NCBI GenBank assembly: GCA_045863855.1
Contig: BTVV01000034.1
Span: 1 to 55,444, forward strand
Reading direction: 5' to 3'
Origin: Planctomycetota bacterium
Lineage (GTDB): Bacteria > Planctomycetota > SZUA-567 > H5-PLA8
Length of the DNA: 55,444 nt
The notes beneath the pieces are model-generated. The model did no database searches. It had not been told where the DNA came from and saw only the letters and a program-made list of their open reading frames with translations. Positions 5,872 through 25,270 of this stretch are shown one piece after another (the stretch's first letter is position 1; every line of letters starts with the position of its first letter). Position numbers and translations under genes: made by a program.

Positions 5872-5887
5872 TGGCCTGCCGTATGCC
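5872..5887 (+). promoter_or_regulatory. Sigma54 (-24/-12) promoter of the rsr-Y RNA-rtcB-rtcA operon
   Basis: TGGCCTGCCGTATGC: GG at 5873-74, exactly 10 nt, GC at 5885-86. Lies next to a divergent enhancer-binding protein gene. Confidence 0.75.
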
Positions 5888-5933
5888 TTTCCGTGAACTC
5901 CGAGTACAGGCGCGGCGAACAGGAGCTAAACCC

Positions 5934-7490
5934 ATGGCCCACAAGAACCTCTTCCGCTCGATGCCGGGCAAGCTGATTCCGGCGGCCGATGTGCACAATG
6001 CGGAAGGCGCGAAGGCGTATGCGTACGAGCCGAAGCACAAGCTCGCGCAGGTGGCGGCGACGGGATGCTTTGGCGCGACGTATTACGCGTCGGCGGGCGC
6101 GCAGCTCGAGGCGATTCTGGAGCTGGCGAATCGCGTGGAGCCGCTGTTCGTGGCGCGGACGGCGATTTATGCACGCGAGCGCGGGCACATGAAGGATATG
6201 CCGGCGCTGCTGTGCGCGGTGCTGGCGGCGAAGGCGCCGGGCGTGCTGGCGGAGGTTTTCGAGCGCGTGATCGATAACGGAAAGATGCTGCGCACGTTCG
6301 TGCAGATGCTCCGCTCGGGTGTGACGGGGCGGAAATCGCTGGGCACGCTGCCGAAGCGGCTGGTTCTGCGCTGGCTGGCGAACCGGTCGGACGAGGCGAT
6401 TTTCAAGGCTTCGGTGGGCGCGAGCCCGTCGCTGGCGGATGTGGTGAAGATGGTGCACCCGAAGCCGGCGACGCCGGCGCGGGCGGCGCTGTACGGGTAC
6501 CTGCTGAACAAGGCGCACGACGCGGCGGCGCTGCCGGAGCTGGTGCGCGCGTACGAGGCCTTCAAGCGCGGCGAGTCGCGGGCGGTTCCGGCGGTGCCGT
6601 TCGAGCTGCTGACGGCGCTGGAGCTGGATACGCAGGCGTGGCAGGGGATCGCGCGGCACGCGGGCTGGCAGATGACGCGGATGAATCTGAACACGTTCCT
6701 GCGCCACGGGGTCTTCAAGGACCGGGAGCTGACGGAGCGGATCGCGCAGCGGCTGCGGGACCCGGACGAGATCCGGCGCGCGAAGGTGTTTCCGTACCAG
6801 CTCATGGTGGCTCACGCGCAGGCGCACTCGGACGTTCCGCACGCGGTGCGCATGGCGCTGCTGGATGCGATGGACCGGGCGCTGGCGAACGTGCCGGTTT
6901 TCGCGGGGCGGGTGGCGGTCTGCCCGGACGTCTCGGGTTCGATGTCGAGCGCGGTGACGGGAGCGCGGCCGGGGGCGACGAGCGTGGTCCGCTGCATCGA
7001 CGTGGCGGCGCTGATCGCGGCGGCGATCCTGCGGCAGAATCCGGCGGCGCGGGTGATCCCGTTCGAATCGGACGTGGTGAAGGTGAAACTCAACGCGCGG
7101 GACACGGTGCTGACGAACGCCGAGAAGCTGGCGAAGATCGGCGGCGGCGGGACGAACTGCAGCGCGCCGCTGAAGCTCCTGGCGCGCGAGCGCGCGGAGG
7201 CGGACCTGGTGATCTACGTTTCGGACAACCAGTCGTGGGTGGACGGGCACGCCGGCGGGCGCGGGACGGGGCTGATGGCCGAATGGGAGGCCTTCAAGCA
7301 GCGCAACCCGAAGGCGAAGCTCGTCTGCATCGACCTGCAGCCGTACGGGACGACGCAGGCCCAGGAGCGCGCGGACATCCTGAACGTGGGCGGGTTCTCG
7401 GACCACGTTTTCGAAGTGCTGGATGCCTTCCACCGGGACCGGTTCTCGGGCGCGCACTGGGTGGAGATCATCGAGCAAGTGACGTGGTAG
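5934..7490 (+). CDS. rsr: Ro60-related RNA-binding protein Rsr (TROVE + VWA)
   Basis: 'NAEGAKAY...LAQVAATGCF..TYY', 'MKDMPALL', 'RMNLNTFLRHG', 'VFPYQL', MIDAS 'DVSGSM', 'GGGTNCSAPL', 'SDNQSW'. AGGAG RBS precedes ATG 5934; the track start 5883 falls inside the promoter. Confidence 0.95.
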   Translation: MAHKNLFRSMPGKLIPAADVHNAEGAKAYAYEPKHKLAQVAATGCFGATYYASAGAQLEAILELANRVEPLFVARTAIYARERGHMKDMPALLCAVLAAKAPGVLAEVFERVIDNGKMLRTFVQMLRSGVTGRKSLGTLPKRLVLRWLANRSDEAIFKASVGASPSLADVVKMVHPKPATPARAALYGYLLNKAHDAAALPELVRAYEAFKRGESRAVPAVPFELLTALELDTQAWQGIARHAGWQMTRMNLNTFLRHGVFKDRELTERIAQRLRDPDEIRRAKVFPYQLMVAHAQAHSDVPHAVRMALLDAMDRALANVPVFAGRVAVCPDVSGSMSSAVTGARPGATSVVRCIDVAALIAAAILRQNPAARVIPFESDVVKVKLNARDTVLTNAEKLAKIGGGGTNCSAPLKLLARERAEADLVIYVSDNQSWVDGHAGGRGTGLMAEWEAFKQRNPKAKLVCIDLQPYGTTQAQERADILNVGGFSDHVFEVLDAFHRDRFSGAHWVEIIEQVTW

Positions 7491-7498
7491 CGAAGTAA

Positions 7499-7557
7499 GG
7501 GCGGAATGCCGCCGGGACTACATTTCGATGTCGCGTCTCGGCAACTCTTGTCCGCCC
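7499..7557 (+). ncRNA. Y RNA-like 1 (minimal, about 59 nt)
   Basis: GGGCGGA/TCCGCCC terminal stem, ATGCC/AACTCTTG internal loop, GCCGGGAC/GTCTCGGC upper stem, ACAT-TTCG-ATGT cap. Starts 9 nt after the rsr stop. Confidence 0.7.
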
Positions 7558-7588
7558 GCTTTCGAGAAAGGTGACGTTGTAAAGAGGA

Positions 7589-7703
7589 GTGACGAATGCC
7601 TGCGGGAGTACATGGCAAAAGGTGGCAACACCGACCGGGTTCATATCCCGGACCGGCGCCGGGCAACCGGCGCCGGGTTCTCTCGCAAACTCCTTGTCGT
7701 CAC
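7589..7703 (+). ncRNA. Y RNA-like 2 (T-arm plus long GNRA-capped helix, no D arm)
   Basis: GTGACGA/TCGTCAC stem containing GACGAATG (GNCGAAN0-1G Yrl motif), TGCGGGAG/CTCTCGCA stem, GGTG-GCAA-CACC hairpin, T-arm CCGGG-TTCATAT-CCCGG, 10-bp helix capped by GCAA. Confidence 0.78.
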
Positions 7704-7726
7704 GCGTAACGGAGTGCAGAGCGTAA

Positions 7727-7858
7727 GCGGCGAATGCCGGCGGAACTACATCATCCAAATGACGCGGTTGTGGGTTCGAATCCCATCGCGGGCCCCAAAC
7801 TGGACGGCCCGCGTAGCTCAACGGTAGAGTGCGATGTTTCGCCAACCCTAGTCGCCGT
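7727..7858 (+). ncRNA. yrlA: YrlA-type Y RNA with circularly permuted tRNA-like domain
   Basis: GCGGCGA/TCGCCGT stem with GGCGAATG motif, GGCGGAAC/GTTTCGCC stem, T-arm GTGGG-TTCGAAT-CCCAT (7770-7786), acceptor-like CGCGGGC/GCCCGCG, then TA + D-arm GCTC-AACGGTA-GAGT. Confidence 0.9.
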
Positions 7859-7882
7859 ACTTGGCATCGAAAGCGAGGCTTT

Positions 7883-8560
7883 ATGTTCGATCGAAAGCAG
7901 ATGAAAAAAGCGGTCGAAATACAGGGCCGCAGCTACGCGTTCTTGAAGTGGATGCAGAAAGGGCTACGCGTGCAATCACGACAAGGCGCCTGGTCGCACC
8001 TCGACCTGGATGTCGCGGATGCCGCGGCGGATTGGATTCGCCGCCACTTGACGGGGATCCCGGAGGACGCGCAACCGGCGTGGGATGACATTCCGGTCTT
8101 CGCGCGCTTCCTGAGTTCGTACTTGAAGACCTCCTATCGGATCGTCCGCGCACGGCTCTCACGCTGCGGTTGCTACTGCGACTGGTGCAGCTACATGGGC
8201 TCAGCGTTGCAACCGCGGCAGCCGGGAAAGAAAGCCGCGACCAGCGCCGAAGCACTCAAGCGCGGGTATGTACGGCTACTCGCGGAGGAACTGAAGCTTC
8301 CGTACCTGGAGAGCGACTTCGAGGCGATCCTGAGCGATGCGGCATTGTCGCCGCACATATCGTGGTGTGCATACGGGCAGGAAATGCTGCGCCGCATGCA
8401 TTTCTCGAGCCAAGGTGAAGGGGTACTGGTGCTCTGGCGCGAGATTGCGTGGAACGAGGAAGGCCGAGTACAAGATGGATTCAAGCTCGATGCACAGCGC
8501 TTCCTTTATGCGGAGGAAGCGGTAATAGAAGGCCTGAAGAAAGCGCTGCCGCTTAACTAA
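7883..8560 (+). CDS. Hypothetical protein with CGCYCDWC cysteine cluster
   Basis: GAGG RBS then ATG 7883; 225 aa; fills the gap between yrlA and rtcB. Confidence 0.75.
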   Translation: MFDRKQMKKAVEIQGRSYAFLKWMQKGLRVQSRQGAWSHLDLDVADAAADWIRRHLTGIPEDAQPAWDDIPVFARFLSSYLKTSYRIVRARLSRCGCYCDWCSYMGSALQPRQPGKKAATSAEALKRGYVRLLAEELKLPYLESDFEAILSDAALSPHISWCAYGQEMLRRMHFSSQGEGVLVLWREIAWNEEGRVQDGFKLDAQRFLYAEEAVIEGLKKALPLN

Positions 8561-8573
8561 TAAGGATACTGCC

Positions 8574-10082
8574 ATGCTGACGATCGATCCGAACCAGAAG
8601 CCGGTCATCCATCCCACCGGAGAAGCGACGGGGCTGCTGCCGGCGCGGGAGAGCGCGGGGAAGCCGATCACGGTGATCGGAACCGAGGCGATCCGCGACG
8701 GGTTCGACGCGACGTGCCTGCAGCAGGCGCTGAACGCGCGTTCGGCTCCGGGCGTAAGCGAGCTGGTGCTGAACCCGGACGCGCACGCCGGCTACGGCGC
8801 TCCGGTGGGCTGCGTGCTGGTTTCGCCGACGCACGTCTACCCCGGTCCGGTGGGTGTGGACATCAAGTGCAGCATGAGCCTCCTGCAGCTCGACGTGCCG
8901 GTGGATGCGGTGCGCGAGAAGCGCGTGCGCCGGGCGCTGATCGATGCGATCGTGGTCCGGACGCCGACGGGCGCGGGCCAGGGGCAGCGCGCGGCACCGA
9001 AGAGCCGCCCGGTGGACGAGGCGCTGGGGAAGCGTGCGAGCGTGGAAGGCGCGAGCGCGGCGGTCTGCGAAGCGCTGGGGATTCCGGCGCATTGGGCGGA
9101 GGCGTGCGAGGACGCGTTTCACCGCGGTCACGACGATACGAGCGCGGCGCTGGAAGCGCGCCTGGACGAACTGCTGGCTTCGGGACTCTTCCGCAACTTC
9201 GCGGACAAGATGCGCCAACTCGGCTCGTACGGCGGGGGCAACCATTTCGGGGAATGCGAGGCGGTCGAGGTGGGTACGGACGCGCGGGCGCAGGAAGCGG
9301 CGCGCGTCTTCGGTCTGAAGGACGGCTGCGCCGCGTTCCTCTCGCATTGCGGCTCGCGCGGGTTCGGCAACATTCTGGCGCAGGGGCAGTTCCGCGCGCT
9401 GCAGGGGCACTTCGGAACGTGGGACATCCCGCTGCCGGGCGGGGACCGCGAGCTGGTTTACGCGCCGCTGGGGACGCCGGAGGCCGACCGTTATCTGGAC
9501 GACATGGCGCTGGGCGCGAACTTCGCGACGGTGAACCACATGCTGATCAACGCGCTGGTGCTGGAGGCGTTTCAGGAGATCCTGCCGGGGACGAAGGGCG
9601 AGCTGGTGTATTTCATCAGCCACAACATCGCGCGGAAGGAAGTGGTGAACCAGCAGCCGAGCTGGGTGCACCGCAAGGGGGCGACGCGCGCCTTCCCGGC
9701 GGGGCACCACGCGCTGGCGGGGACGCGCTTCATGGCGACGGGGCATCCGATCCTGCTGCCGGGGAACCCGACGGCGGGGAGCGTGGTGATGGTGGCGGAG
9801 CCCGGCGCGGAGAAGAGCTGCTTCAGCGTGAACCACGGCGCGGGGCGCTGCATGGGGCGCAAGGCGGCGGAGCGCGCGCTGGACCAGGCGCAGATCGACC
9901 GCGAGTTCGAGGAGCTGGATATTATTTACAACGCGCGGCAGTACCCAAAGGACGAGGCGCCGGCGGCGTACAAGAATTTCGGGGAGGTGCTGCGCAGCGT
10001 GGAGGCGGCCGGGCTGGCGCGGCCCGTCGCGAAGCTGAAGGCGCGCTTCGTGATCAAGGATGCGGCGAAGGCGGACGATTGA
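8574..10082 (+). CDS. rtcB: RNA ligase RtcB family
   Basis: PDAHAGYG, VGVDIKC, GGGNHF, SHCGSRG, HN, HRKGAT, HGAGR and DEAPAAYK motifs; AAGGA RBS. Confidence 0.95.
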   Translation: MLTIDPNQKPVIHPTGEATGLLPARESAGKPITVIGTEAIRDGFDATCLQQALNARSAPGVSELVLNPDAHAGYGAPVGCVLVSPTHVYPGPVGVDIKCSMSLLQLDVPVDAVREKRVRRALIDAIVVRTPTGAGQGQRAAPKSRPVDEALGKRASVEGASAAVCEALGIPAHWAEACEDAFHRGHDDTSAALEARLDELLASGLFRNFADKMRQLGSYGGGNHFGECEAVEVGTDARAQEAARVFGLKDGCAAFLSHCGSRGFGNILAQGQFRALQGHFGTWDIPLPGGDRELVYAPLGTPEADRYLDDMALGANFATVNHMLINALVLEAFQEILPGTKGELVYFISHNIARKEVVNQQPSWVHRKGATRAFPAGHHALAGTRFMATGHPILLPGNPTAGSVVMVAEPGAEKSCFSVNHGAGRCMGRKAAERALDQAQIDREFEELDIIYNARQYPKDEAPAAYKNFGEVLRSVEAAGLARPVAKLKARFVIKDAAKADD

Positions 10083-18991: not shown

Positions 18992-21900
18992 CTACGGAGG
19001 CGGCAGGACGCCCTTCCCGACGCCGTTGCCGGCCGACGGGCTGAAGCAGGTGTACTTCACGGGCACCAGCCCCGAACCGGCGGTGGCGTCGAACTGGAAC
19101 GCGACCGGAACGTTGAAGATCTGGCCGACGATGCGCTGATCGGTCAAGCCTTCGTCGGCGAAGTTGTCGTGGAAATCGCCCTTGCCGGTATTGAGCCTCA
19201 GTTCGATCTGATTGGTCCGCTTCAGGTACTTCGCCTTACACTGAGTGCCCGAGCGTCCGCGGGCGTCCAACGTGAAGTTGAAGGCGGCTCCGCCGATATC
19301 GAACGTCACGGCTATCCCGGCGAACGGATAGGGCGTCCGCGGGGGCGGGACGGCTCCGGGGTTGTCGAAGCGCACGACGAAGATGATCTGGTCCTTATTG
19401 GGGTAACGGAAGACGTTGCTGATGCGCAGGCTGCGCACATCCAGATTGCCAGCCGGCGTCGTGACCTGGAATTCGAAGGCGCCGATATCGGCCTGCCCGT
19501 CGCCGACGCGCGAGAAGCCCGTCCCGCGCTGATCGGTCCCCAATCCACCGGTGTTCGCCCCGGTGTTGTAGGCCGGGCTGGTGGCATCGATCGCGTGCGT
19601 GAAGGTCGGTCCGCCGTTGTCGGCCAGCGCGCCCAGGTACGCGTCCTGACCCACGATGTTCCCATTCGCGCCGTCGGTCGCGTTGTGCCCGTAACCGTTC
19701 TCGATCAGCGAATACGCGATGCTGGCGAAATACGCGAAGGCGTCGTAGCCGATGATACCGGCGAAGTTGTCGCCCACGAGGATGCTGCTGGCGTCGAGCC
19801 CGCCGCCGGTATGAAAGATGCCGCCGCCGTAGGCGAGCGCGTTGTTGTTCGCGAAGGTGCTGTTGAGCAGGTCCAGCGTGCCGTAGGCCCACAACCCGCC
19901 GCCGTCACTGCCTCCGTAGGAGCCGCTCGTGGCGCCGCCCCCCGGGAAGCCGCCCGCATACGCCAAGTTCCCGGAGATCGTGCTATTGCGAATGACCGGG
20001 TTAACGCCGCCCCCCAGGTAAATACCCGCGCCCCTTACGCTGCCGCCGTCGCCGCCGAAGGGGGAGGAGGAGGACGAATCGCCGCTCCCAGCGTTGCCGC
20101 CGTTAGCTCCGGTGAGCGCCAAATTGTTCGAGATCGTGCTGCGTTCGATCGTCACCGCGCCGCTGGTATTGATCCAGATTCCGCCGCCTTCGTTGGCGCC
20201 GGCGTCGCCGCCGTTGCCGCCAAAGCCGCTGTTGGAAGTGCTCGTGGTGGTCCCACCCGCGCCGCCCGTCCCGCCGTCCCCATTCGAGCCCAAGGAATTA
20301 CCCGAAACGGTCGTATCGCTAAGCGTCAGCGCGCCGTCGCCGCCAAAGTACAGCCCGCCGCCCTGGTTGTTGCCGCCGTTCCCGCCGTTCCCGCCGCTGA
20401 TATTGGAGCCGGAGCTGCTGCTTGTTCCCGTGCCCCCCGCGCCGCCTTGCCCGCCGTAACTGGCGTTGGCCGAGTTGAAGCTGATCGTGCAGTTATCAAT
20501 GCTGAGCACGCCGTTGCCGACCTGGAAGATCCCGCCGCCCTGCGCGGAACCGCCTCTGCCTCCGTTGCCGCCCGATCCACCAAAGCCCGTACTTGCTCCC
20601 CCGGTACCCGAACCGCCTCTGCCGCCCGGTCCGCCGCGTTCGCCAAAGGCTCCATTGGATTGGATGGTGGTGGTATTGATCGTGAGCGTATTGGAGCTGC
20701 TGGCCCAAAGCCCGCCGCCACGACCGAAACCGGCATCGTTGCCGCCGCCGCCGTCGCCCGCGTTGTTAGAACCGGTTCCGCCCGCTCCACCCGTGCCGCC
20801 GCGACCGCCCCGGGCGCTGTTGCTGGTTAGTTCGGAACCCGTGATCGTGACCGTGCCCGATCCAGCCCAGATCCCGCCGCCGTCCGCGTTGTTGCCTTCG
20901 CCGCCCGATCCTCCATCACCGCCGTCGGCACTGGTTCCGTTGGTCGCATCGCCTCCGATACCGCCCGTGCCGCCCCCACCGCCGGTCAGCGAATTTCCGT
21001 ACACGAGCAGGTCGGTCAGCGTGACCACCCGGTTACCCAACCCTTCACCCAGGTACAAACCGGCCGCCTTGGCCTCGCCGCCCCTGCCGCCGGAGCCGCC
21101 ATCGCCCCCGTCATCGTTTCCATTGTTATTCGAATTCCCGCCGTTCCCGCCCGCTCCGGCAAAACCGGCCGCGCCTTGTCCGAACTGGATAGCGGTGCTG
21201 AAAATCGAAACCGTGCCGGACCCGTTGTTGATCCAGAGCCCGCCGCCCTGCACGTCCCCGCCCGCGCCGCCGCCTCCGCCGTTTCCGCCGGTGCCGCTCA
21301 CTCCCGAAGCCTCACCGCCCCGCCCGCCGAGCCCGCCCGAACCGCCGTACACGCGGTTGGAAGTGAAATCGCTACCGTCAATGAGCACCGTGCCCGCGCC
21401 GTTGTCCACGAACAAGCCGCCACCTAAAGCGCTCCCGCCGTTCCCGCCCGCGCCGCCCGGCTGGCCGCTGCCGGTGGATTCGTCCCCGCCCGTCCGCCCA
21501 TCGCCGCCGCCGCCGCCGAACACGAAGTTCCCGTTCACGTTGGATTCGGTGATCGTCACCGTCCCGCTCGACGCGAAAATCCCGCCGCCGGCCGCGTTGC
21601 CGCCTTCCCCACCGAACCCGCCCACCGTGGAGGGCGCCGCCATCCCGTTCCCGCCGTCCCCGGCGATCGCGTTGCAGTACGCCAGCACGCTCCCGTTGAT
21701 GAACTGGAGGCTCGAACCGGCCGTGTAAATCCCGCCGCCCTGCGCGTCGGCGCCGTCTTCGCCGCCGGCTCCCGAACTCGTGGCATCCGCGCCGTCCGCG
21801 CCGAATGCCTGGCATTGTGTGATTTCCACGTTGTCCAGGATGACGCTGCCGCCTTCGGCCAGCAGCCCGCCGCCCAGCGCGGACGTGGCATCCGTCCCGT

Positions 21901-22348
21901 TGTCCCGCGCGATACCACCGTACAGCGTCAGGTTGCGCAGGATCAGCGTCCCGTTCCCGATCTTGTGCATGATCCGGTCGTTGTAGCCAAACGCGCTGAT
22001 CACCGTCACGCCCTGGCCCGCGCCGACGATCGTCAGCGTCCCGTTCGCATGCGTGATGTCCAGGTCGCCGCCGAAGCCGAGGTTCTCCAGCGCCCCGCCG
22101 TAGCTGAGCAGGTACGTACCGGCCGGCACATTGATCGTGTCCGTCGCGCCCCCCGCGTTCGCCGCGATGATCGCTTCGCGCAGCGAGAGATTCGCCGGCG
22201 GCAGGCCGTCCGTGGTCGTATCCACGTTGTACGTGGCGGCCTGCGCCTGCCCAAAGGCGCCGAGCCCAAAGAAGGCCACCACCAGCGGGGCTTTTTCCAT
22301 CAGGCGTTGCAAGCGGGAAGAAGGGGTGCGACGCGTGAACAGCGGCAT
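18992..22348 (-). CDS. Large Gly-rich secreted beta-helix protein (CSLREA-like N-terminus, choice-of-anchor-Q-like region)
   Basis: Signal peptide ending AQA, 'LSLREAIIAAN', repeated N...GGxGG...GGGI units, 'LADNGGPT...DQRG...DIGAFE'. ATG 22348 (GGAG upstream) preferred. Confidence 0.85.
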   Translation of the reverse strand: MPLFTRRTPSSRLQRLMEKAPLVVAFFGLGAFGQAQAATYNVDTTTDGLPPANLSLREAIIAANAGGATDTINVPAGTYLLSYGGALENLGFGGDLDITHANGTLTIVGAGQGVTVISAFGYNDRIMHKIGNGTLILRNLTLYGGIARDNGTDATSALGGGLLAEGGSVILDNVEITQCQAFGADGADATSSGAGGEDGADAQGGGIYTAGSSLQFINGSVLAYCNAIAGDGGNGMAAPSTVGGFGGEGGNAAGGGIFASSGTVTITESNVNGNFVFGGGGGDGRTGGDESTGSGQPGGAGGNGGSALGGGLFVDNGAGTVLIDGSDFTSNRVYGGSGGLGGRGGEASGVSGTGGNGGGGGAGGDVQGGGLWINNGSGTVSIFSTAIQFGQGAAGFAGAGGNGGNSNNNGNDDGGDGGSGGRGGEAKAAGLYLGEGLGNRVVTLTDLLVYGNSLTGGGGGTGGIGGDATNGTSADGGDGGSGGEGNNADGGGIWAGSGTVTITGSELTSNSARGGRGGTGGAGGTGSNNAGDGGGGNDAGFGRGGGLWASSSNTLTINTTTIQSNGAFGERGGPGGRGGSGTGGASTGFGGSGGNGGRGGSAQGGGIFQVGNGVLSIDNCTISFNSANASYGGQGGAGGTGTSSSSGSNISGGNGGNGGNNQGGGLYFGGDGALTLSDTTVSGNSLGSNGDGGTGGAGGTTTSTSNSGFGGNGGDAGANEGGGIWINTSGAVTIERSTISNNLALTGANGGNAGSGDSSSSSPFGGDGGSVRGAGIYLGGGVNPVIRNSTISGNLAYAGGFPGGGATSGSYGGSDGGGLWAYGTLDLLNSTFANNNALAYGGGIFHTGGGLDASSILVGDNFAGIIGYDAFAYFASIAYSLIENGYGHNATDGANGNIVGQDAYLGALADNGGPTFTHAIDATSPAYNTGANTGGLGTDQRGTGFSRVGDGQADIGAFEFQVTTPAGNLDVRSLRISNVFRYPNKDQIIFVVRFDNPGAVPPPRTPYPFAGIAVTFDIGGAAFNFTLDARGRSGTQCKAKYLKRTNQIELRLNTGKGDFHDNFADEGLTDQRIVGQIFNVPVAFQFDATAGSGLVPVKYTCFSPSAGNGVGKGVLPPP

Positions 22349-22673
22349 ACGGAAATCTCCAAGAGCCCCTGGTATCAGGAGGGTGAACCCATGAGAAAAT
22401 GAACGCATGATCCTAATCGGGAAGCGAATTCGCGCTAGGCGGAAGATGTTGAAAACAAACTGCACCTTTACATCTGGAATATCCGAGTTCATGCAAAGGC
22501 TTGAGCCGCTTGATCTGCCCCGGTGCACTGTCGTTTTAGAAAATCCGTAAAGATTGAGCGCGGGAATGCCTCGCCGACACGATGCTCGTAGCAGGCGCCA
22601 ATAGAAATGCGCCCTTCAGGATCTGGAAGTCGGCCTGCCTGGCGCATGAAACGCATTCGCGCCATGCCCGGAG

Positions 22674-22796
22674 ACAGACTTCGAGTCCGTAAGGGCGCTG
22701 AGATGTTGCACTGGACTTCGGATGATGCGGCGGAAGTGTGAAGACCGGTGAGGTCATCAGACTGCGGCGACGGCATAAATCGGAGGTCGAATACGC
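22674..22796 (+). ncRNA. Putative structured RNA, tandem copy 1
   Basis: 123 nt; differs from copy 2 by 7 substitutions and 1 indel. GTCC-GTAA-GGGC hairpin; GATGA/TCATC pairing. Confidence 0.55.
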
Positions 22797-22877
22797 ACGC
22801 TCAAATTTTAGTGCGCCCCGCTACGGCCGGACGTCGGTTTCCGCTCCAGCTTGGCGCGCGAACGCACCGGCCGGGAA

Positions 22878-22999
22878 ACAGACTTCGAGCCCGTAAGGGC
22901 GCTGAGGTGTTGCACTGGACTTCGGATTATGCGGCGGAGTGTGAAGACCGGTGAGGTAATCAGACTACGGCGACGGCATAGATCGGATGTCGAATACGC
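22878..22999 (+). ncRNA. Putative structured RNA, tandem copy 2
   Basis: 122 nt. GCCC-GTAA-GGGC hairpin; GATTA/TAATC pairing, compensatory relative to copy 1. Confidence 0.55.
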
Positions 23000-23054
23000 C
23001 AACCACGAGGGCAATGTACGCGACGGCTCGCTTTATTGCAACCGCGGATTGCAG

Positions 23055-24155
23055 TTAATTTGCGGGCGCACGTTTCCCGCGCCGCCAGACCGCCACGAGC
23101 CCCAATGCCAGCGCGAAGCCGAGCACGAACGGCCAGATGCGAGATTCCGGGGCGTCGTAATATTCGATGATAGGCGGGCGCTTAAACGCGCGCTGATCTT
23201 TCGAGGGCGCGAAGTACAAATCGGCGGGCGCGGGTGCGTAAGGCCAGCGGTCCGCAAATTCAGTCAGCCAAGCCTCTTGCGGTCCCGTCTGCACGGGCAG
23301 CTTGAGTTGCTCCAATAGCTCCTGGCGCTGCGCGGACGCCAGCGGACCCGACCAGACGGCTTCCCCGGTCCAAGGCTGTTCCCGCGTCAGTTCGCCGTCG
23401 TAGCGCGCTTCGGCGACAAAGAAAATGCGCAGCAGCCGCCCGTATTCGCCCAAGGCTTTTGCCGCCGCTTGAGAATCGGGCTCGCGGTACGGAAAGAGCG
23501 GCCGATCGGTCCGGAAACTCATCCGCAGGGCGGGCGCTTCCACCTTCATTTCGCCGGGCTCCCCCTTCTCCTTTACCACTTTCAGAGCAGTGATTTTCCA
23601 GCGCTGTTCGACGTACGGCTTCGCCCACGCTTCAACCTGGGGCGAGAAGGCAAACCCGTTCGATTCCAGCCACTCCATCAGGACGCGCGCGGTGTCGGCT
23701 TCCAGCACGCTAGCTTTGAAGCCGGCCACAAGTTTCTCTTCCAGCACGCGGACTTCCGGACCTTCGGCGGTCTTGGCAGCCCCTGGCCTCTGGTCGCGCT
23801 TCGATGGCCCGCAGCCCATGCCTTCGTTCGGCCGCGGTTTGCGTTGAATCTCCGGCGCCGTCCACTTCGCGAGCAGCGGAAAGGCACCGGCGCCCGACTC
23901 GTTCAAGTCGGGCTGCGACGGCGAGGGGATCAAGAAACCGAAGTCCGGGGTATCGGTCTTGAACGACGCTTTGCGAATGAAGTGCTCGGTCTTGTTCGCG
24001 GCGTCCCAGAGGATCACGAGGGTCTGATCGGCGTTGAGAACCTGCTGTCCCAAAGGAGGGGCGGGGCAACAGGCGGAGGTGGGCCGTTCGTGCCCCAGCG
24101 GCAGCGCAAAGGCGGCCGCCACGGCCAAGAACCATCCGAAGGCGCGTACGCTCAT
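23055..24155 (-). CDS. DUF2330-like exported protein with C-terminal TM anchor
   Basis: ATG 24155, signal peptide, 'ACCPAP...NADQT..ILWD...EHFIR.ASF...DFGFLIP.P', C-terminal TM plus basic tail. The track's upstream extension overlaps the next gene. Confidence 0.75.
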   Translation of the reverse strand: MSVRAFGWFLAVAAAFALPLGHERPTSACCPAPPLGQQVLNADQTLVILWDAANKTEHFIRKASFKTDTPDFGFLIPSPSQPDLNESGAGAFPLLAKWTAPEIQRKPRPNEGMGCGPSKRDQRPGAAKTAEGPEVRVLEEKLVAGFKASVLEADTARVLMEWLESNGFAFSPQVEAWAKPYVEQRWKITALKVVKEKGEPGEMKVEAPALRMSFRTDRPLFPYREPDSQAAAKALGEYGRLLRIFFVAEARYDGELTREQPWTGEAVWSGPLASAQRQELLEQLKLPVQTGPQEAWLTEFADRWPYAPAPADLYFAPSKDQRAFKRPPIIEYYDAPESRIWPFVLGFALALGLVAVWRRGKRAPAN

Positions 24156-24217
24156 GGGCGGACTCCTGTGCAATCCGTGCTTCCTACGCCTGAGAAGCGA
24201 AAAGGTTCGCCTTCGGT

Positions 24218-25270
24218 CTACCTCGCGATGCGGACTTCGCGGCCGGTTGCGGCGGATTTGTAAATCGCATCGAGGATGTACTGCATGCGCAGGCCGTCTT
24301 CGGCGTCGGCCAGCGGTCGCTTGCCGTGCAAAATCGCCTGGACGAGATCGGCTTGGGAACTCTGCCCTTCGAATCCTTTGGGGACGGGAATCTGTCCGCT
24401 GAGTTTCTGGCCGGCGCGGGTGGTGTGGAACTCGGCGACGAACTGGTATCCCCCGCCTTCGTTGCGGTGCACGAGCGAGCCGTCGGTGCCCAGCACGGTG
24501 GTGTTCATGCTTTCGGGGTCGTTCTGGTGGGCGCCCCAACTGATTTCGAAGAGCAGCGAAGCTCCGTTTTTGAAGCGGATGAAGCCGCCGGCGAGGTCCT
24601 CGCAATCGTACTGCGCTTTCAGGCGCTTGGCTTTTTCGCGCGCGAGGAGGTCGTGCGCCGCGGCGCTGACCGAGACCGGTTCGGGGTTGCCCATCAGCCA
24701 GAGCGCCAGGTCGATGCGGTGCACGCCGAGGTCAATGAGCGGCCCGCCTCCGCTGAGCTTCTTCTGTCCGAACCAGCTTCCGAACTTGGGGAACCCGTCG
24801 CGGCGCGTCCACTTGGTGACACCGTGGTAGGGCGTGCCGAGGAAACCGTCGTCGGCGAGCGCCTTGAGGCTCTGCGCGGCGGCGGTGAAGCGGTACGAGA
24901 GGTTGATGCCGAGGACGCGCTTGCGCTTGCGAGCTTCGTCGCGCATTTTGCGCGCCTGAGCGACGTTGAGCGCCATGGGCTTTTCGCTTTGGACGTGCGC
25001 GCCGGCCTTGAGGCAGTCGATCGTCACCGGCGCGTGGAGGAAGTTAGGCAGGGCGACGCTGACCAGATCGGGCCGCGCTTCTTTCAGCATGCGTTTGTAA
25101 TCGGTGTAGCACTTGGAGGCACCGATCGCCGGCGCCCATTCTTCGAGCCGTTTGGGGTCTAGGTCGGCGACGGCGACGAGTTCGGATTCGGACAGCGCGG
25201 CGTAGGTCTTGGCGTGATTCCGGCCCATACCCAATCCAACGACGGCGCAGCGCAACTTGGAACTCATCAT
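24218..25270 (-). CDS. Gfo/Idh/MocA family oxidoreductase
   Basis: VVGLG, EKPMA, GGGPLIDLGVHRID. Confidence 0.93.
   Translation of the reverse strand: MMSSKLRCAVVGLGMGRNHAKTYAALSESELVAVADLDPKRLEEWAPAIGASKCYTDYKRMLKEARPDLVSVALPNFLHAPVTIDCLKAGAHVQSEKPMALNVAQARKMRDEARKRKRVLGINLSYRFTAAAQSLKALADDGFLGTPYHGVTKWTRRDGFPKFGSWFGQKKLSGGGPLIDLGVHRIDLALWLMGNPEPVSVSAAAHDLLAREKAKRLKAQYDCEDLAGGFIRFKNGASLLFEISWGAHQNDPESMNTTVLGTDGSLVHRNEGGGYQFVAEFHTTRAGQKLSGQIPVPKGFEGQSSQADLVQAILHGKRPLADAEDGLRMQYILDAIYKSAATGREVRIAR

What the first reader, a model, noticed from the sequence alone, without database searches (positions are those of the whole stretch)
22674..22999. Tandem 123/122-nt non-coding repeat with a compensatory mutation: candidate new structured RNA
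Seen: two copies 204 nt apart, with 7 substitutions and a 1-nt indel (so not coding). Two substitutions are compensatory: GATGA/TCATC (22721-25/22754-58) versus GATTA/TAATC (22925-29/22957-61). Two more are compatible with G-U wobble on the + strand (GTCC/GCCC-GTAA-GGGC GNRA hairpin; ATGTTG/GTGTTG pairing with CGGCAT). TTCGA/TCGAA closes the ends. A competing helix, CACTGG-A-CTTC/GAAG-A-CCGGTG, is also possible, suggesting a switch. The folding polarity (+) is antisense to both flanking genes, and the pair lies upstream of the 1.1-kaa surface-protein gene. I recognise no known family.
Basis: partly seen in the sequence, partly recalled or inferred. Interest (0 to 1): 0.8.

Follow-up and report, generated by a model that had tools for sequence, protein, structure and literature searches.

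The report
Tandem candidate small RNA, Planctomycetota
Two adjacent copies of a roughly 200-base non-coding unit, conserved between related uncultured Planctomycetota and present in RNA libraries, most likely encode a new, narrowly distributed structured small RNA of unknown role.

Summary
The true unit is about 204 nt. It has exactly two copies in this genome, two orthologous copies in one congener, and one diverged copy at an unrelated locus in a second congener. It was not found in any other searched genome of the order, the class or a phylum sample, nor in the metagenome scans. Rfam gives no match.

The block 22607-23063 is 84-96% identical between the two close species. Third codon positions of the neighbouring gene are 75% identical and the adjacent spacer 65%, so the block is under constraint. 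No reading frame is preserved.

An 82-nt imperfect hairpin is significantly stable in all three lineages and is kept in the diverged copy through changes on both sides. Three of four metatranscriptome assemblies hold a roughly 230-nt contig across the junction of the two copies.

Best reading: tandem genes for a new structured small RNA on the + strand. Strand, ends and function remain unshown. Interest is moderate.

The parts
22607..23063 (.). Whole conserved non-coding block: two tandem units plus a right-edge hairpin. Homology with the congener G002 ends at about 23050-23063.
   Evidence: G000 versus G002 identity is 84-96% in the sub-blocks, against 65% for 22450-22606 and 75% at third codon positions of the neighbouring gene.
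22607..22665 (+). 5' extension of unit 1. It starts with (A/G)TGCGCCC and holds GGAAGTCGG. It is weakly alike to the spacer before copy 2.
   Evidence: 91.5% identical to G002. In the full-unit fold, GCGCCC pairs with GGGCGC at 22693-22698.
22666..22796 (+).
   Evidence: Covariance model R1 scores 163.7 bits.
22685..22696 (+). Small hairpin GUCC-GUAA-GGGC (GNRA loop) of copy 1. The same hairpin in copy 2 is at 22889-22900.
   Evidence: In G001 the model aligns GAAC-GAAA-AUUC here.
22711..22792 (+). Long imperfect hairpin of copy 1. It is closed by GGACUUCGG / CGGAGGUCGAA, with tip ACCGGUGAGGU.
   Evidence: MFE -34.8 kcal/mol, z -4.06 on + and z -2.78 on -.
22797..22869 (+). Spacer, which is the 5' extension of unit 2. 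It is covered by the RNA-library contigs.
   Evidence: 87.7% identical to G002. Contigs 22705-22931, 22724-22938 and 22721-22957 cover it in 3 of 4 RNA libraries.
22870..22999 (+). It is the best-conserved part.
   Evidence: 96.2% identical to G002. R1 scores 163.1 bits.
22915..22995 (+). Long imperfect hairpin of copy 2.
   Evidence: MFE -27.8 kcal/mol, z -3.12 on + and z -2.73 on -.
23011..23039 (+). Bipartite hairpin GCAAUG..GCGA-CGGC-UCGC..UAUUGC at the right edge of the conserved block. It may be a 3' end structure but is not a canonical terminator.
   Evidence: It is predicted in G000 and G002 with a shifted inner stem after 3 substitutions. The whole-stretch z-scores are not significant, and the consensus terminator scan found 0 sites.
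22410..22606 (.). Poorly conserved, less G+C-rich interval between the large gene and unit 1. It is presumed to be a divergent promoter region (inference).
   Evidence: 69% identical to G002. No sigma-70-type site passed the scan.
18992..22300 (-). Neighbouring gene: a glycine-rich secreted repeat protein with a choice-of-anchor Q domain. The likely start is ATG 22300, before a signal-peptide-like MEKAPLVVAFFGLGAFGQAQA. The ORF is open up to 22528.
   Evidence: NF041518 matches at E 8.3e-18. The ortholog in G002 is 91% identical and the best G001 match is 42%.

Best explanation
The block 22607-23063 holds two tandemly duplicated genes, or one transcript with two modules, for a previously undescribed structured small RNA. 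Each unit is about 200 nt. It has a 5' domain in which GGGCGC can pair either locally, forming a GNRA-capped hairpin, or with GCGCCC at the start of the unit. This is followed by an 82-nt imperfect hairpin closed by GGACUUCGG/GGANGUCGAA and tipped by ACCGGU(G)AGG.

The RNA is most likely read from the + strand. It would then diverge from the choice-of-anchor Q gene and stop before the convergent gene on the right. It would act in trans, by base-pairing or by binding a protein, rather than as a leader of a fixed downstream gene.

Shown: the repeat, its constraint, the lack of a reading frame, the stable hairpin kept across divergence, and its presence in RNA libraries. Inferred: the strand, the ends, independent transcription and any regulatory role.
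For: (1) Constraint. The sub-blocks are 84-96% identical between G000 and G002, against 75% at third codon positions of the adjacent gene and 65% for 22450-22606.

(2) Non-coding. Indels of 1 nt sit at different columns in different copies. No Pfam family reached E<=0.001 for 5 of 5 overlapping ORFs.

(3) The long hairpin. z is -4.06, -3.12 and -3.09 on the + strand in copy 1, copy 2 and the G001 copy, each time lower than on the - strand (-2.78, -2.73, -1.95).

(4) Structure in the diverged copy. The G001 copy keeps the four blocks GACTTCGAG, TGGACTTCGG, ACCGGT and GTCGAA in the same order and spacing, while the hairpin interior is rewritten with pairing kept. On the model-fitted alignment, 95.3% of 193 cells pair. 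Eleven pairs have changes on both sides, against 3.0 +/- 1.4 in shuffles and 1-3 in slid controls. On a structure-blind MAFFT alignment the same architecture returns with 4 such pairs.

(5) Strand hints. There are 14 G.U cells against 6 A.C cells. The loops are GUAA/GAAA on +. One-sided changes among the four close copies keep pairing on + in 4 cases and break it in 4 (one a gap); 2 of those 4 would pair on -.

(6) RNA libraries. Three of four libraries, from four studies, hold a contig over the junction of the copies, at depth 24.9, 6.6 and 45.9. The neighbouring gene's contigs have depth 6.8, 15.2 and 11.1. Nothing was laid on the DUF2330 gene.

(7) No constant downstream gene on either strand. 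In G000 and G002 the right-hand neighbours are convergent genes. In G001 the copy sits between a desaturase gene and Hpt/response-regulator genes, and G001 has no ortholog of the large gene.
Against: Only five copies in three species of one genus are known. Four of them are close, so every double change comes from one sequence (G001).

That sequence was first found at E 0.3 genome-wide. This is the same score range as hits that lie in coding DNA (G006 in a GH71 gene; G004).

On the structure-blind alignment the RNAalifold covariation term is slightly unfavourable, at +1.72.

Folds of the whole copies are only z -1.4 to -2.0 on either strand.

The strand is not shown. Contigs carry no strand. 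The G.U excess is small and comes from a structure predicted on the + strand.

No promoter or canonical terminator passed the consensus scan.

The RNA contigs cover only 22705-22957, not the outer halves of the copies, and their ends are unexplained. DNA carry-over in the RNA libraries is unlikely but was not excluded by a control stretch.

No target or partner is known.
Confidence: 0.5

Rival explanations
1. The element is read on the - strand. It would be a long structured leader, or an upstream regulatory RNA, of the choice-of-anchor Q gene in G000 and G002, and of the desaturase gene in G001. Transcription would start from a weak sigma-70-like site TTGCAA-17-TACATT at about 23044-23016.
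For: The pair travels with the large gene. Homology with G002 covers the gene and the block and stops just right of the block. Both hexamers of the putative - strand promoter are identical in G002 while the spacer between them changes at 3 places (read by eye). The long hairpin is also more stable than shuffles on the - strand, at z -2.7 to -2.8. In G001 the copy is likewise upstream of a - strand gene.
Against: The downstream genes are unrelated in G000/G002 and G001. The interval 22450-22606 between the element and the gene is the least conserved part, at 65%. The promoter match is only 8 of 12 and failed the scan. G.U pairs on + become A.C mismatches on - (14 against 6). The z-scores are weaker on - in all three lineages.
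Confidence: 0.2
2. The constraint acts on DNA. The block would be an extended upstream regulatory region of the large gene, with repeated protein-binding sites. The invariant words GACTTCG (twice per unit) and GANGTCG (twice per unit) would be operator half-sites. The RNA contigs would then be by-products.
For: GACTTCGAG, TGGACTTCGG and GGANGTCGAA are the only blocks invariant in all five copies, which goes beyond what a helix alone needs. The block sits upstream of a gene, and no promoter or terminator for a separate RNA was found.
Against: About 450 bp of continuous 84-96% identity is far more than binding sites need. In G001 the hairpin interior is rewritten but stays paired, and the stems contain G.U pairs and bulges, which fits RNA rather than duplex DNA. 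Contig depth in the RNA libraries exceeds that of the neighbouring gene in 2 of 3 libraries. G001 keeps the element without the large gene.
Confidence: 0.12
3. It is a decaying mobile or repetitive element (MITE- or REP-like), or a neutral tandem duplication with no function.
For: The G001 copy lies at an unrelated locus. A gene-sized indel (the DUF2330 gene, 23055-24605) lies directly beside the element in G000 but not in G002.
Against: There are only 2, 2 and 1 copies per genome. No transposase or terminal repeats were seen, and no hits appeared in other genomes. Both paralogs are kept as orthologous pairs and are far better conserved than third codon positions.
Confidence: 0.05

Closest known systems
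Tandemly duplicated bacterial small RNA genes such as PrrF1/PrrF2 of Pseudomonas, OmrA/OmrB of E. coli and AbcR1/AbcR2 of Agrobacterium (named from recall, not from a call)
   Same: Two adjacent paralogous non-coding units of 100-200 nt, in an intergenic region and on one strand. Both are kept in related species, and the conserved cores are flanked by more diverged parts.
   Different: There is no sequence or Rfam relation. No Rho-independent terminator, promoter or seed region could be identified. The RNA libraries bridge the spacer, so the two units may form one transcript. The phylum is Planctomycetota, for which my one literature search listed no sRNA study (listing only).
Candidate structured RNA motifs found by comparative genomics (Weinberg et al. 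2010, PMC2864571, seen in a search listing only) as held in Rfam 15
   Same: An intergenic, conserved, hairpin-rich motif with no assigned function, defined by sequence and pairing conservation.
   Different: None of the 4227 Rfam models matches at E<=10 over 22300-23300. The only row is P31 at 17.3 bits against a 40-bit threshold, outside the repeat. The distribution is one genus, which is too narrow for a curated covariation claim.
Riboswitch or attenuator leaders with competing helices
   Same: Each 3' strand has two possible 5' partners. GGGCGC can pair with GCGCCC or with G(U/C)CC. GANGUCGAA can pair with GACUUCGAG or with GGACUUCGG.
   Different: There is no constant downstream gene on either strand, no known aptamer and no terminator.

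Membership tests
Any Rfam 15 family (including self-cleaving ribozymes, riboswitches, 6S, SRP, Y RNA) | A covariance-model match at or near the family's gathering score. | tested here: not met
   over 22300-23300, both strands, E<=10, the only row is P31 (17.3 bits against 40) at 23020-23075, outside the copies; the only match at gathering score in the window is YrlA at 7727-7861; nothing falls on the element in the G001 and G002 loci at E<=1.
MITE / REP-type interspersed repeat | Many dispersed copies per genome. | tested here: not met
   Two copies in G000 (the other 9 rows are 14-26-nt matches at E>=4.8). With the models there are 2, 2 and 1 copies in G000, G002 and G001.
MITE / REP-type interspersed repeat | Terminal inverted repeats or target-site duplications at the unit ends. 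| tested here: inconclusive
   The repeat finder reports no inverted pair flanking the units. The only repeated edge motif is the direct AT-rich patch followed by (A/G)TGCGCC.
Cis-regulatory leader (riboswitch / attenuator) | The same or functionally related gene lies downstream on the element's strand in different genomes. | tested here: not met
   On the + strand the downstream genes are convergent in G000 and G002 and Hpt/response regulator in G001. On the - strand they are the choice-of-anchor Q protein in G000/G002 and a fatty-acid desaturase in G001.
Trans-acting small RNA gene | A discrete transcript with its own start and end. | tested here: inconclusive
   Contigs over 22705-22957 appear in 3 of 4 RNA libraries. 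Contigs show neither strand nor true ends, and no promoter or terminator passed the scan.
Trans-acting small RNA gene | A conserved accessible seed complementary to target mRNAs. | not tested
   Only a crude duplex calculation against the neighbouring gene's start region was run. It was no better than shuffles (85 and 96 of 200 shuffles did at least as well). No genome-wide target search was made.
Structured RNA supported by covariation | Base pairs kept through changes on both sides, above controls. | tested here: inconclusive
   Eleven such pairs against 3.0 +/- 1.4 in shuffles on a model-fitted alignment, and 4 on a MAFFT alignment with covariation term +1.72. All of them come from the single G001 sequence.
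Protein-coding gene / small ORF | A reading frame preserved between copies and species, with family matches. | tested here: not met
   1-nt indels fall at columns 58 and 69 in different copies. No Pfam family reached E<=0.001 for 5 ORFs. For the 44-codon + ORF at 22607, my reading of the G000/G002 alignment gives about 3 silent changes, 7 replacement changes and a frameshift.

The most novel reading that the evidence does not exclude
Each unit may be a two-state RNA device. The invariant words come in competing sets: GCGCCC or G(U/C)CC against GGGCGC, and GACUUCGAG or GGACUUCGG against GGANGUCGAA and the upstream GGANGUCGG. The RNA could then toggle between a form with two long hairpins and a form with a GNRA hairpin plus end-closing helix, in response to a ligand, a protein or temperature. 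The tandem pair would give a cooperative or dosage-tuned response. That would make it a new class of free-standing sensory RNA in Planctomycetota, not tied to a downstream gene.
Probability: 0.1. Interest if true: 0.6.

Novelty: new member of a known kind. Interest (0 to 1): 0.38.

Why it matters
My one literature search listed no study of small RNAs in Planctomycetota (listing only; beyond that I rely on recall). The organisms that carry this element turn up in bioreactor, sludge, aquaculture, sediment and soil data sets (labels).

The element is constrained and visible in RNA libraries, it lies next to a giant secreted surface-type protein gene, and it is kept as a duplicated pair. That gives a concrete handle for the first sRNA study in this lineage. 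It also gives a seed alignment that could grow into a family once more genomes of the genus exist.

If it turns out to be only a genus-specific sRNA, the gain is modest.

Tried and rejected
1. BLASTN with the 351-nt pair in 61 related genomes. Seven genomes matched at E<=0.01, but only G000 and G002 are real. The other 5 are 20-34-nt matches to the spacer.

2. Model R1 in the family, 17 genomes. The G004 hit (E 0.7) lies in what reads as coding sequence and was dropped.

3. Model R2, which contains G001, so its 3e-17 score there is circular. It was run on the class (62 genomes), the order (20) and a phylum sample (151). The G006 hit (E 0.47) lies inside a GH71 gene. G064, G102 and G105 (E 0.23-0.46) align only in part, mostly to the small hairpin. 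G009, G012 and a third G000 site (E 1.3-1.9) were not examined.

4. Pattern scan of genome contigs. The model kept only the G002 and G001 loci. Rows L055 (E 0.044) and L035 (E 0.27) were not at the pattern site and were dropped.

5. Metagenome scans. The first found 0. The second found 8 loci, and the model scored none of the 8 pattern sites.

6. Promoter and terminator hunting by eye. A sigma-54-like TGGCGCATGAAACGCA at 22640-22655 has the right spacing before copy 1 in G000 and G002, but not before copy 2 or in G001, so it was rejected. AT-rich patches precede each unit but fit either strand. The scan found 0 promoter-like and 0 terminator-like sites. Folds of the right flank are not significant.

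7. Circular or unit-length cleaved RNA. The contigs measure 227-238 nt, close to 204+30. This was rejected because the X13 contig matches the genome without any difference across both 22724 and 22928, which differ between the copies.

8. Contig ends as RNA ends. The two copies share no exact word longer than 20 nt, so repeat collapse does not explain the X13 ends. Strain variants might. No conclusion was drawn. The parts without cover (22470-22700 and right of 22957) are not used as evidence.

9. Duplex with the neighbouring gene's start region was no better than shuffles.

10. A syntenic look at the desaturase loci of G000 and G002 found no copy there.

11. Earlier notes of this scan held nothing on this element.

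Full report
**1. The observation**

The repeat finder reports two direct-repeat families. Together they make 22666-22796 and 22870-22999 alike at 93-94%, spaced 204/203 nt.

The repeat is larger than described. It begins at 22666. The 60-70 nt before each copy (22607-22665 and 22811-22869) also align weakly, sharing (A/G)TGCGCCC, GGA(A/C)GTCGG and CCGGRRACA. The duplicated unit is therefore about 204 nt.

**2. Copy number and distribution**

The assembly (6.9 Mb, 287 contigs, 94% complete) has only these two copies. The other 9 of 11 rows are 14-26-nt matches at E>=4.8.

BLASTN in 61 related genomes gives one true relative, G002 of the same genus. It is 91% identical over all 351 nt and also has two copies.

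A covariance model of the four copies (R1) then found a weak full-length hit in the third species of the genus, G001 (23.8 bits, E 0.3 genome-wide).

A model that includes G001 (R2) found nothing further that stands up. This covers the order (20 genomes), the class (62) and an even sample of the phylum (151):
- The G006 hit lies in a GH71 coding region.
- Three phylum hits at E 0.2-0.5 are partial.

The wider scans added nothing:
The model kept only the G002 and G001 loci.
- Two metagenome scans gave 0 and 8 loci, none confirmed.

The record titles of the two confirmed loci call them Planctomycetota MAGs.

The family as known is therefore five copies in three species of one genus. I write 'not found in those searched', not 'absent'.

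**3. Is the G001 copy a real relative?**

Its score alone is no better than chance hits in coding DNA, so it needs other support.
- It is intergenic.
- It shares GACTTCGAG, T(T)GGACTTCGG, ACCGGT and GTCGAA in the same order, with spacings within 1-2 nt.
- A three-block pattern with much wider gaps was matched by somewhat more than 118 stretches among 185,579 genomes. The odds that one of two congeners carries such a match by chance are low.
- Between the blocks it folds into a long hairpin with z -3.09.

I accept it as a relative, while noting that everything said about covariation rests on this one sequence.

**4. Constraint**

Against G002, identity is as follows:

| Region | Identity |
|---|---|
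| 5' extension of unit 1 | 91.5% |
| Core copy 1 | 87.8% |
| Spacer | 87.7% |
| Core copy 2 | 96.2% |
| Right flank to 23063 | 84.4% |
| Third codon positions of the adjacent gene | 75.1% |
| 22450-22606 | 65.2% |

Homology stops at about 23050-23063. The reason is that G000 has a DUF2330 gene (23055-24605) between the element and the GFO/IDH/MocA oxidoreductase gene, and G002 lacks it. A neutral leftover of a duplication is therefore excluded.

**5. Not coding**

- One-nucleotide indels fall at different columns in G000 copy 2 and G002 copy 1.
- No Pfam family reached E<=0.001 for five overlapping ORFs. The only row is a 12.4-bit match at E 0.18 against a 27-bit cut-off.
- For the 44-codon ORF that starts exactly where conservation starts, my reading of the alignment gives more replacement than silent changes, plus a frameshift.

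**6. Structure**

Whole copies fold only modestly better than shuffles, with z -1.4 to -2.0 on either strand. The 3' 82 nt do much better:

| Copy | z on + | z on - |
|---|---|---|
| Copy 1 | -4.06 | -2.78 |
| Copy 2 | -3.12 | -2.73 |
| G001 | -3.09 | -1.95 |

RNAalifold on the four close copies gives a small 5' domain with a GUAA-capped hairpin and this long hairpin. Of the pairs that vary, four keep pairing through a one-sided change to or from G.U on the + strand. Four lose it, one of them through a gap; two of these four would be G.U on the - strand.

With G001 aligned by the model, 95.3% of 193 cells pair. Eleven pairs carry changes on both sides, six of them in the lower half of the long hairpin and two in the GNRA hairpin, where GUAA becomes GAAA. 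Shuffles give 3.0 +/- 1.4 and slid controls 1-3. That alignment is fitted to the structure. A MAFFT alignment gives the same architecture, but with only 4 such pairs and a slightly unfavourable covariation term.

The structure is therefore plausible and conserved in outline, but it is not statistically established.

**7.

- TTCGA/TCGAA is invariant in all five copies, so it says nothing either way.
- The GNRA hairpin is supported as above.
In G002 copy 1, the neighbouring pair shows a deletion opposite an A-to-C change.
- In G001, 2 of 5 pairs of GATGA/TCATC stand, with 1 mismatch and 2 gaps. For ATGTTG/CGGCAT only 2 of 6 stand.
- Both helices are incompatible with the long hairpin that G001 does keep.

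They may be an alternative conformer in the G000/G002 lineage. That remains a possibility and is not a finding.

**8. Competing pairings**

Folding a full 194-nt unit pairs GCGCCC at the start of the unit with GGGCGC, in place of the local GNRA hairpin. It also pairs the upstream GGA(A/C)GUC with the first GACUUCG. This happens in all four G000/G002 units. The consensus has 26 pairs, one of them with a double change between paralogs.

The 3' GANGUCGAA can pair with either GACUUCG word. The most invariant words of the family are exactly these mutually competing strands. This is the basis of the 'novel case', and it remains untested.

**9. Expression**

Of 24 listed public runs, I laid four RNA libraries from four studies, all held as contigs. 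Three of the four hold a contig across the junction of the copies:

| Run | Span on the window | Identity | Depth |
|---|---|---|---|
| X13 | 22705-22931 | 100% | 24.9 |
| X17 | 22724-22938, plus 10 loose letters that match a G002-like copy 1 | 92% | 6.6 |
| X19 | 22721-22957, with the extra A of G002 copy 2 | 96% | 45.9 |

All four libraries hold contigs of the 5' part of the large gene. These end at 22406, 22468, 22369 and 22374, with depths 6.8, 2, 15.2 and 11.1.

The spacer is thus present in RNA together with parts of both copies. In 2 of 3 libraries it is at higher depth than the neighbouring gene.

Contigs give no strand and no reliable ends. The two copies share no exact word above 20 nt, so I cannot explain why the contigs stop where they do. 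Uncovered parts are not used as evidence. No silent control stretch outside this 2-kb piece was laid.

**10. Context and strand**

The left neighbour (- strand) is a glycine-rich secreted repeat protein with a choice-of-anchor Q domain. Its ortholog in G002 is 91% identical, and G001 has only 42% paralogs.

The right neighbours in G000 and G002 are convergent - strand genes. In G001 the copy lies between a desaturase gene (-) and Hpt/response-regulator genes (+).

No gene is constantly downstream on either strand. This argues for a free-standing RNA gene rather than a leader.

The + strand is favoured for these reasons:
- lower z-scores on +;
- 14 G.U against 6 A.C cells;
- the GNRA loops;
- a right-edge hairpin whose inner stem is re-formed after three substitutions.

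None of this is decisive. I put + at roughly 2 to 1.

**11. Known families**

- Rfam 15 has no match at E<=10 over the region, and none at E<=1 in the two related loci.
- The window's only Rfam hit is an unrelated YrlA.
- A full-text search for small or structured RNAs in Planctomycetota listed nothing specific. I saw titles and abstract starts only.

I did not find this element in print, but that rests on this one search and on Rfam.

**12. Verdict**

This is a real, constrained, non-coding tandem element that appears in RNA libraries. It is best read as a new, genus-restricted structured small RNA in two tandem copies. Strand, ends, structure details and function are open. It is a new member of a known kind, of moderate interest.

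Noticed in passing
window 5883-10082: A classical RNA-repair cluster: a Ro60/Rsr gene (5883-7490 +, with TROVE and Ro60 vWA domains), a Y-RNA-like YrlA (7727-7861 +, 70.4 bits against a 69-bit threshold) and RtcB ligase (8574-10082 +).
   Followed up: partly
window 23055-24605: The DUF2330 gene (- strand) lies between the element and the GFO/IDH/MocA oxidoreductase gene in this genome. It is missing at the same place in the congener G002, where the oxidoreductase gene follows the element directly. This is a gene-sized indel whose left edge coincides with the end of the conserved block.
   Followed up: partly
window 22677-22685, 22712-22721, 22782-22791 and 22625-22633 (the same words occur in copy 2 and in L062): The only blocks invariant in all five copies are two GACTTCG words and two GGANGTCG words per unit. 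They are mutually complementary, so each can pair with either partner. This could mean alternative RNA folds or repeated protein-binding sites.
   Followed up: partly
window 18992-22528 and G000:C48:35760-36677, G000:C6:115669-116586: The large choice-of-anchor Q protein has paralogs elsewhere in the genome (58% and 42% identity in the C-terminal 300 aa) and several in the congeners. The element was found next to only one of them.
   Followed up: no
L146:1108-1193 and L145:1501-1572 (other Planctomycetota genomes): Partial model hits share a CUUCGAG-NCC-G(N)AA-GGN-CG hairpin, very like the small 5' hairpin of the element, but without the long hairpin. This may be chance or a more widespread small motif.
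   Followed up: no
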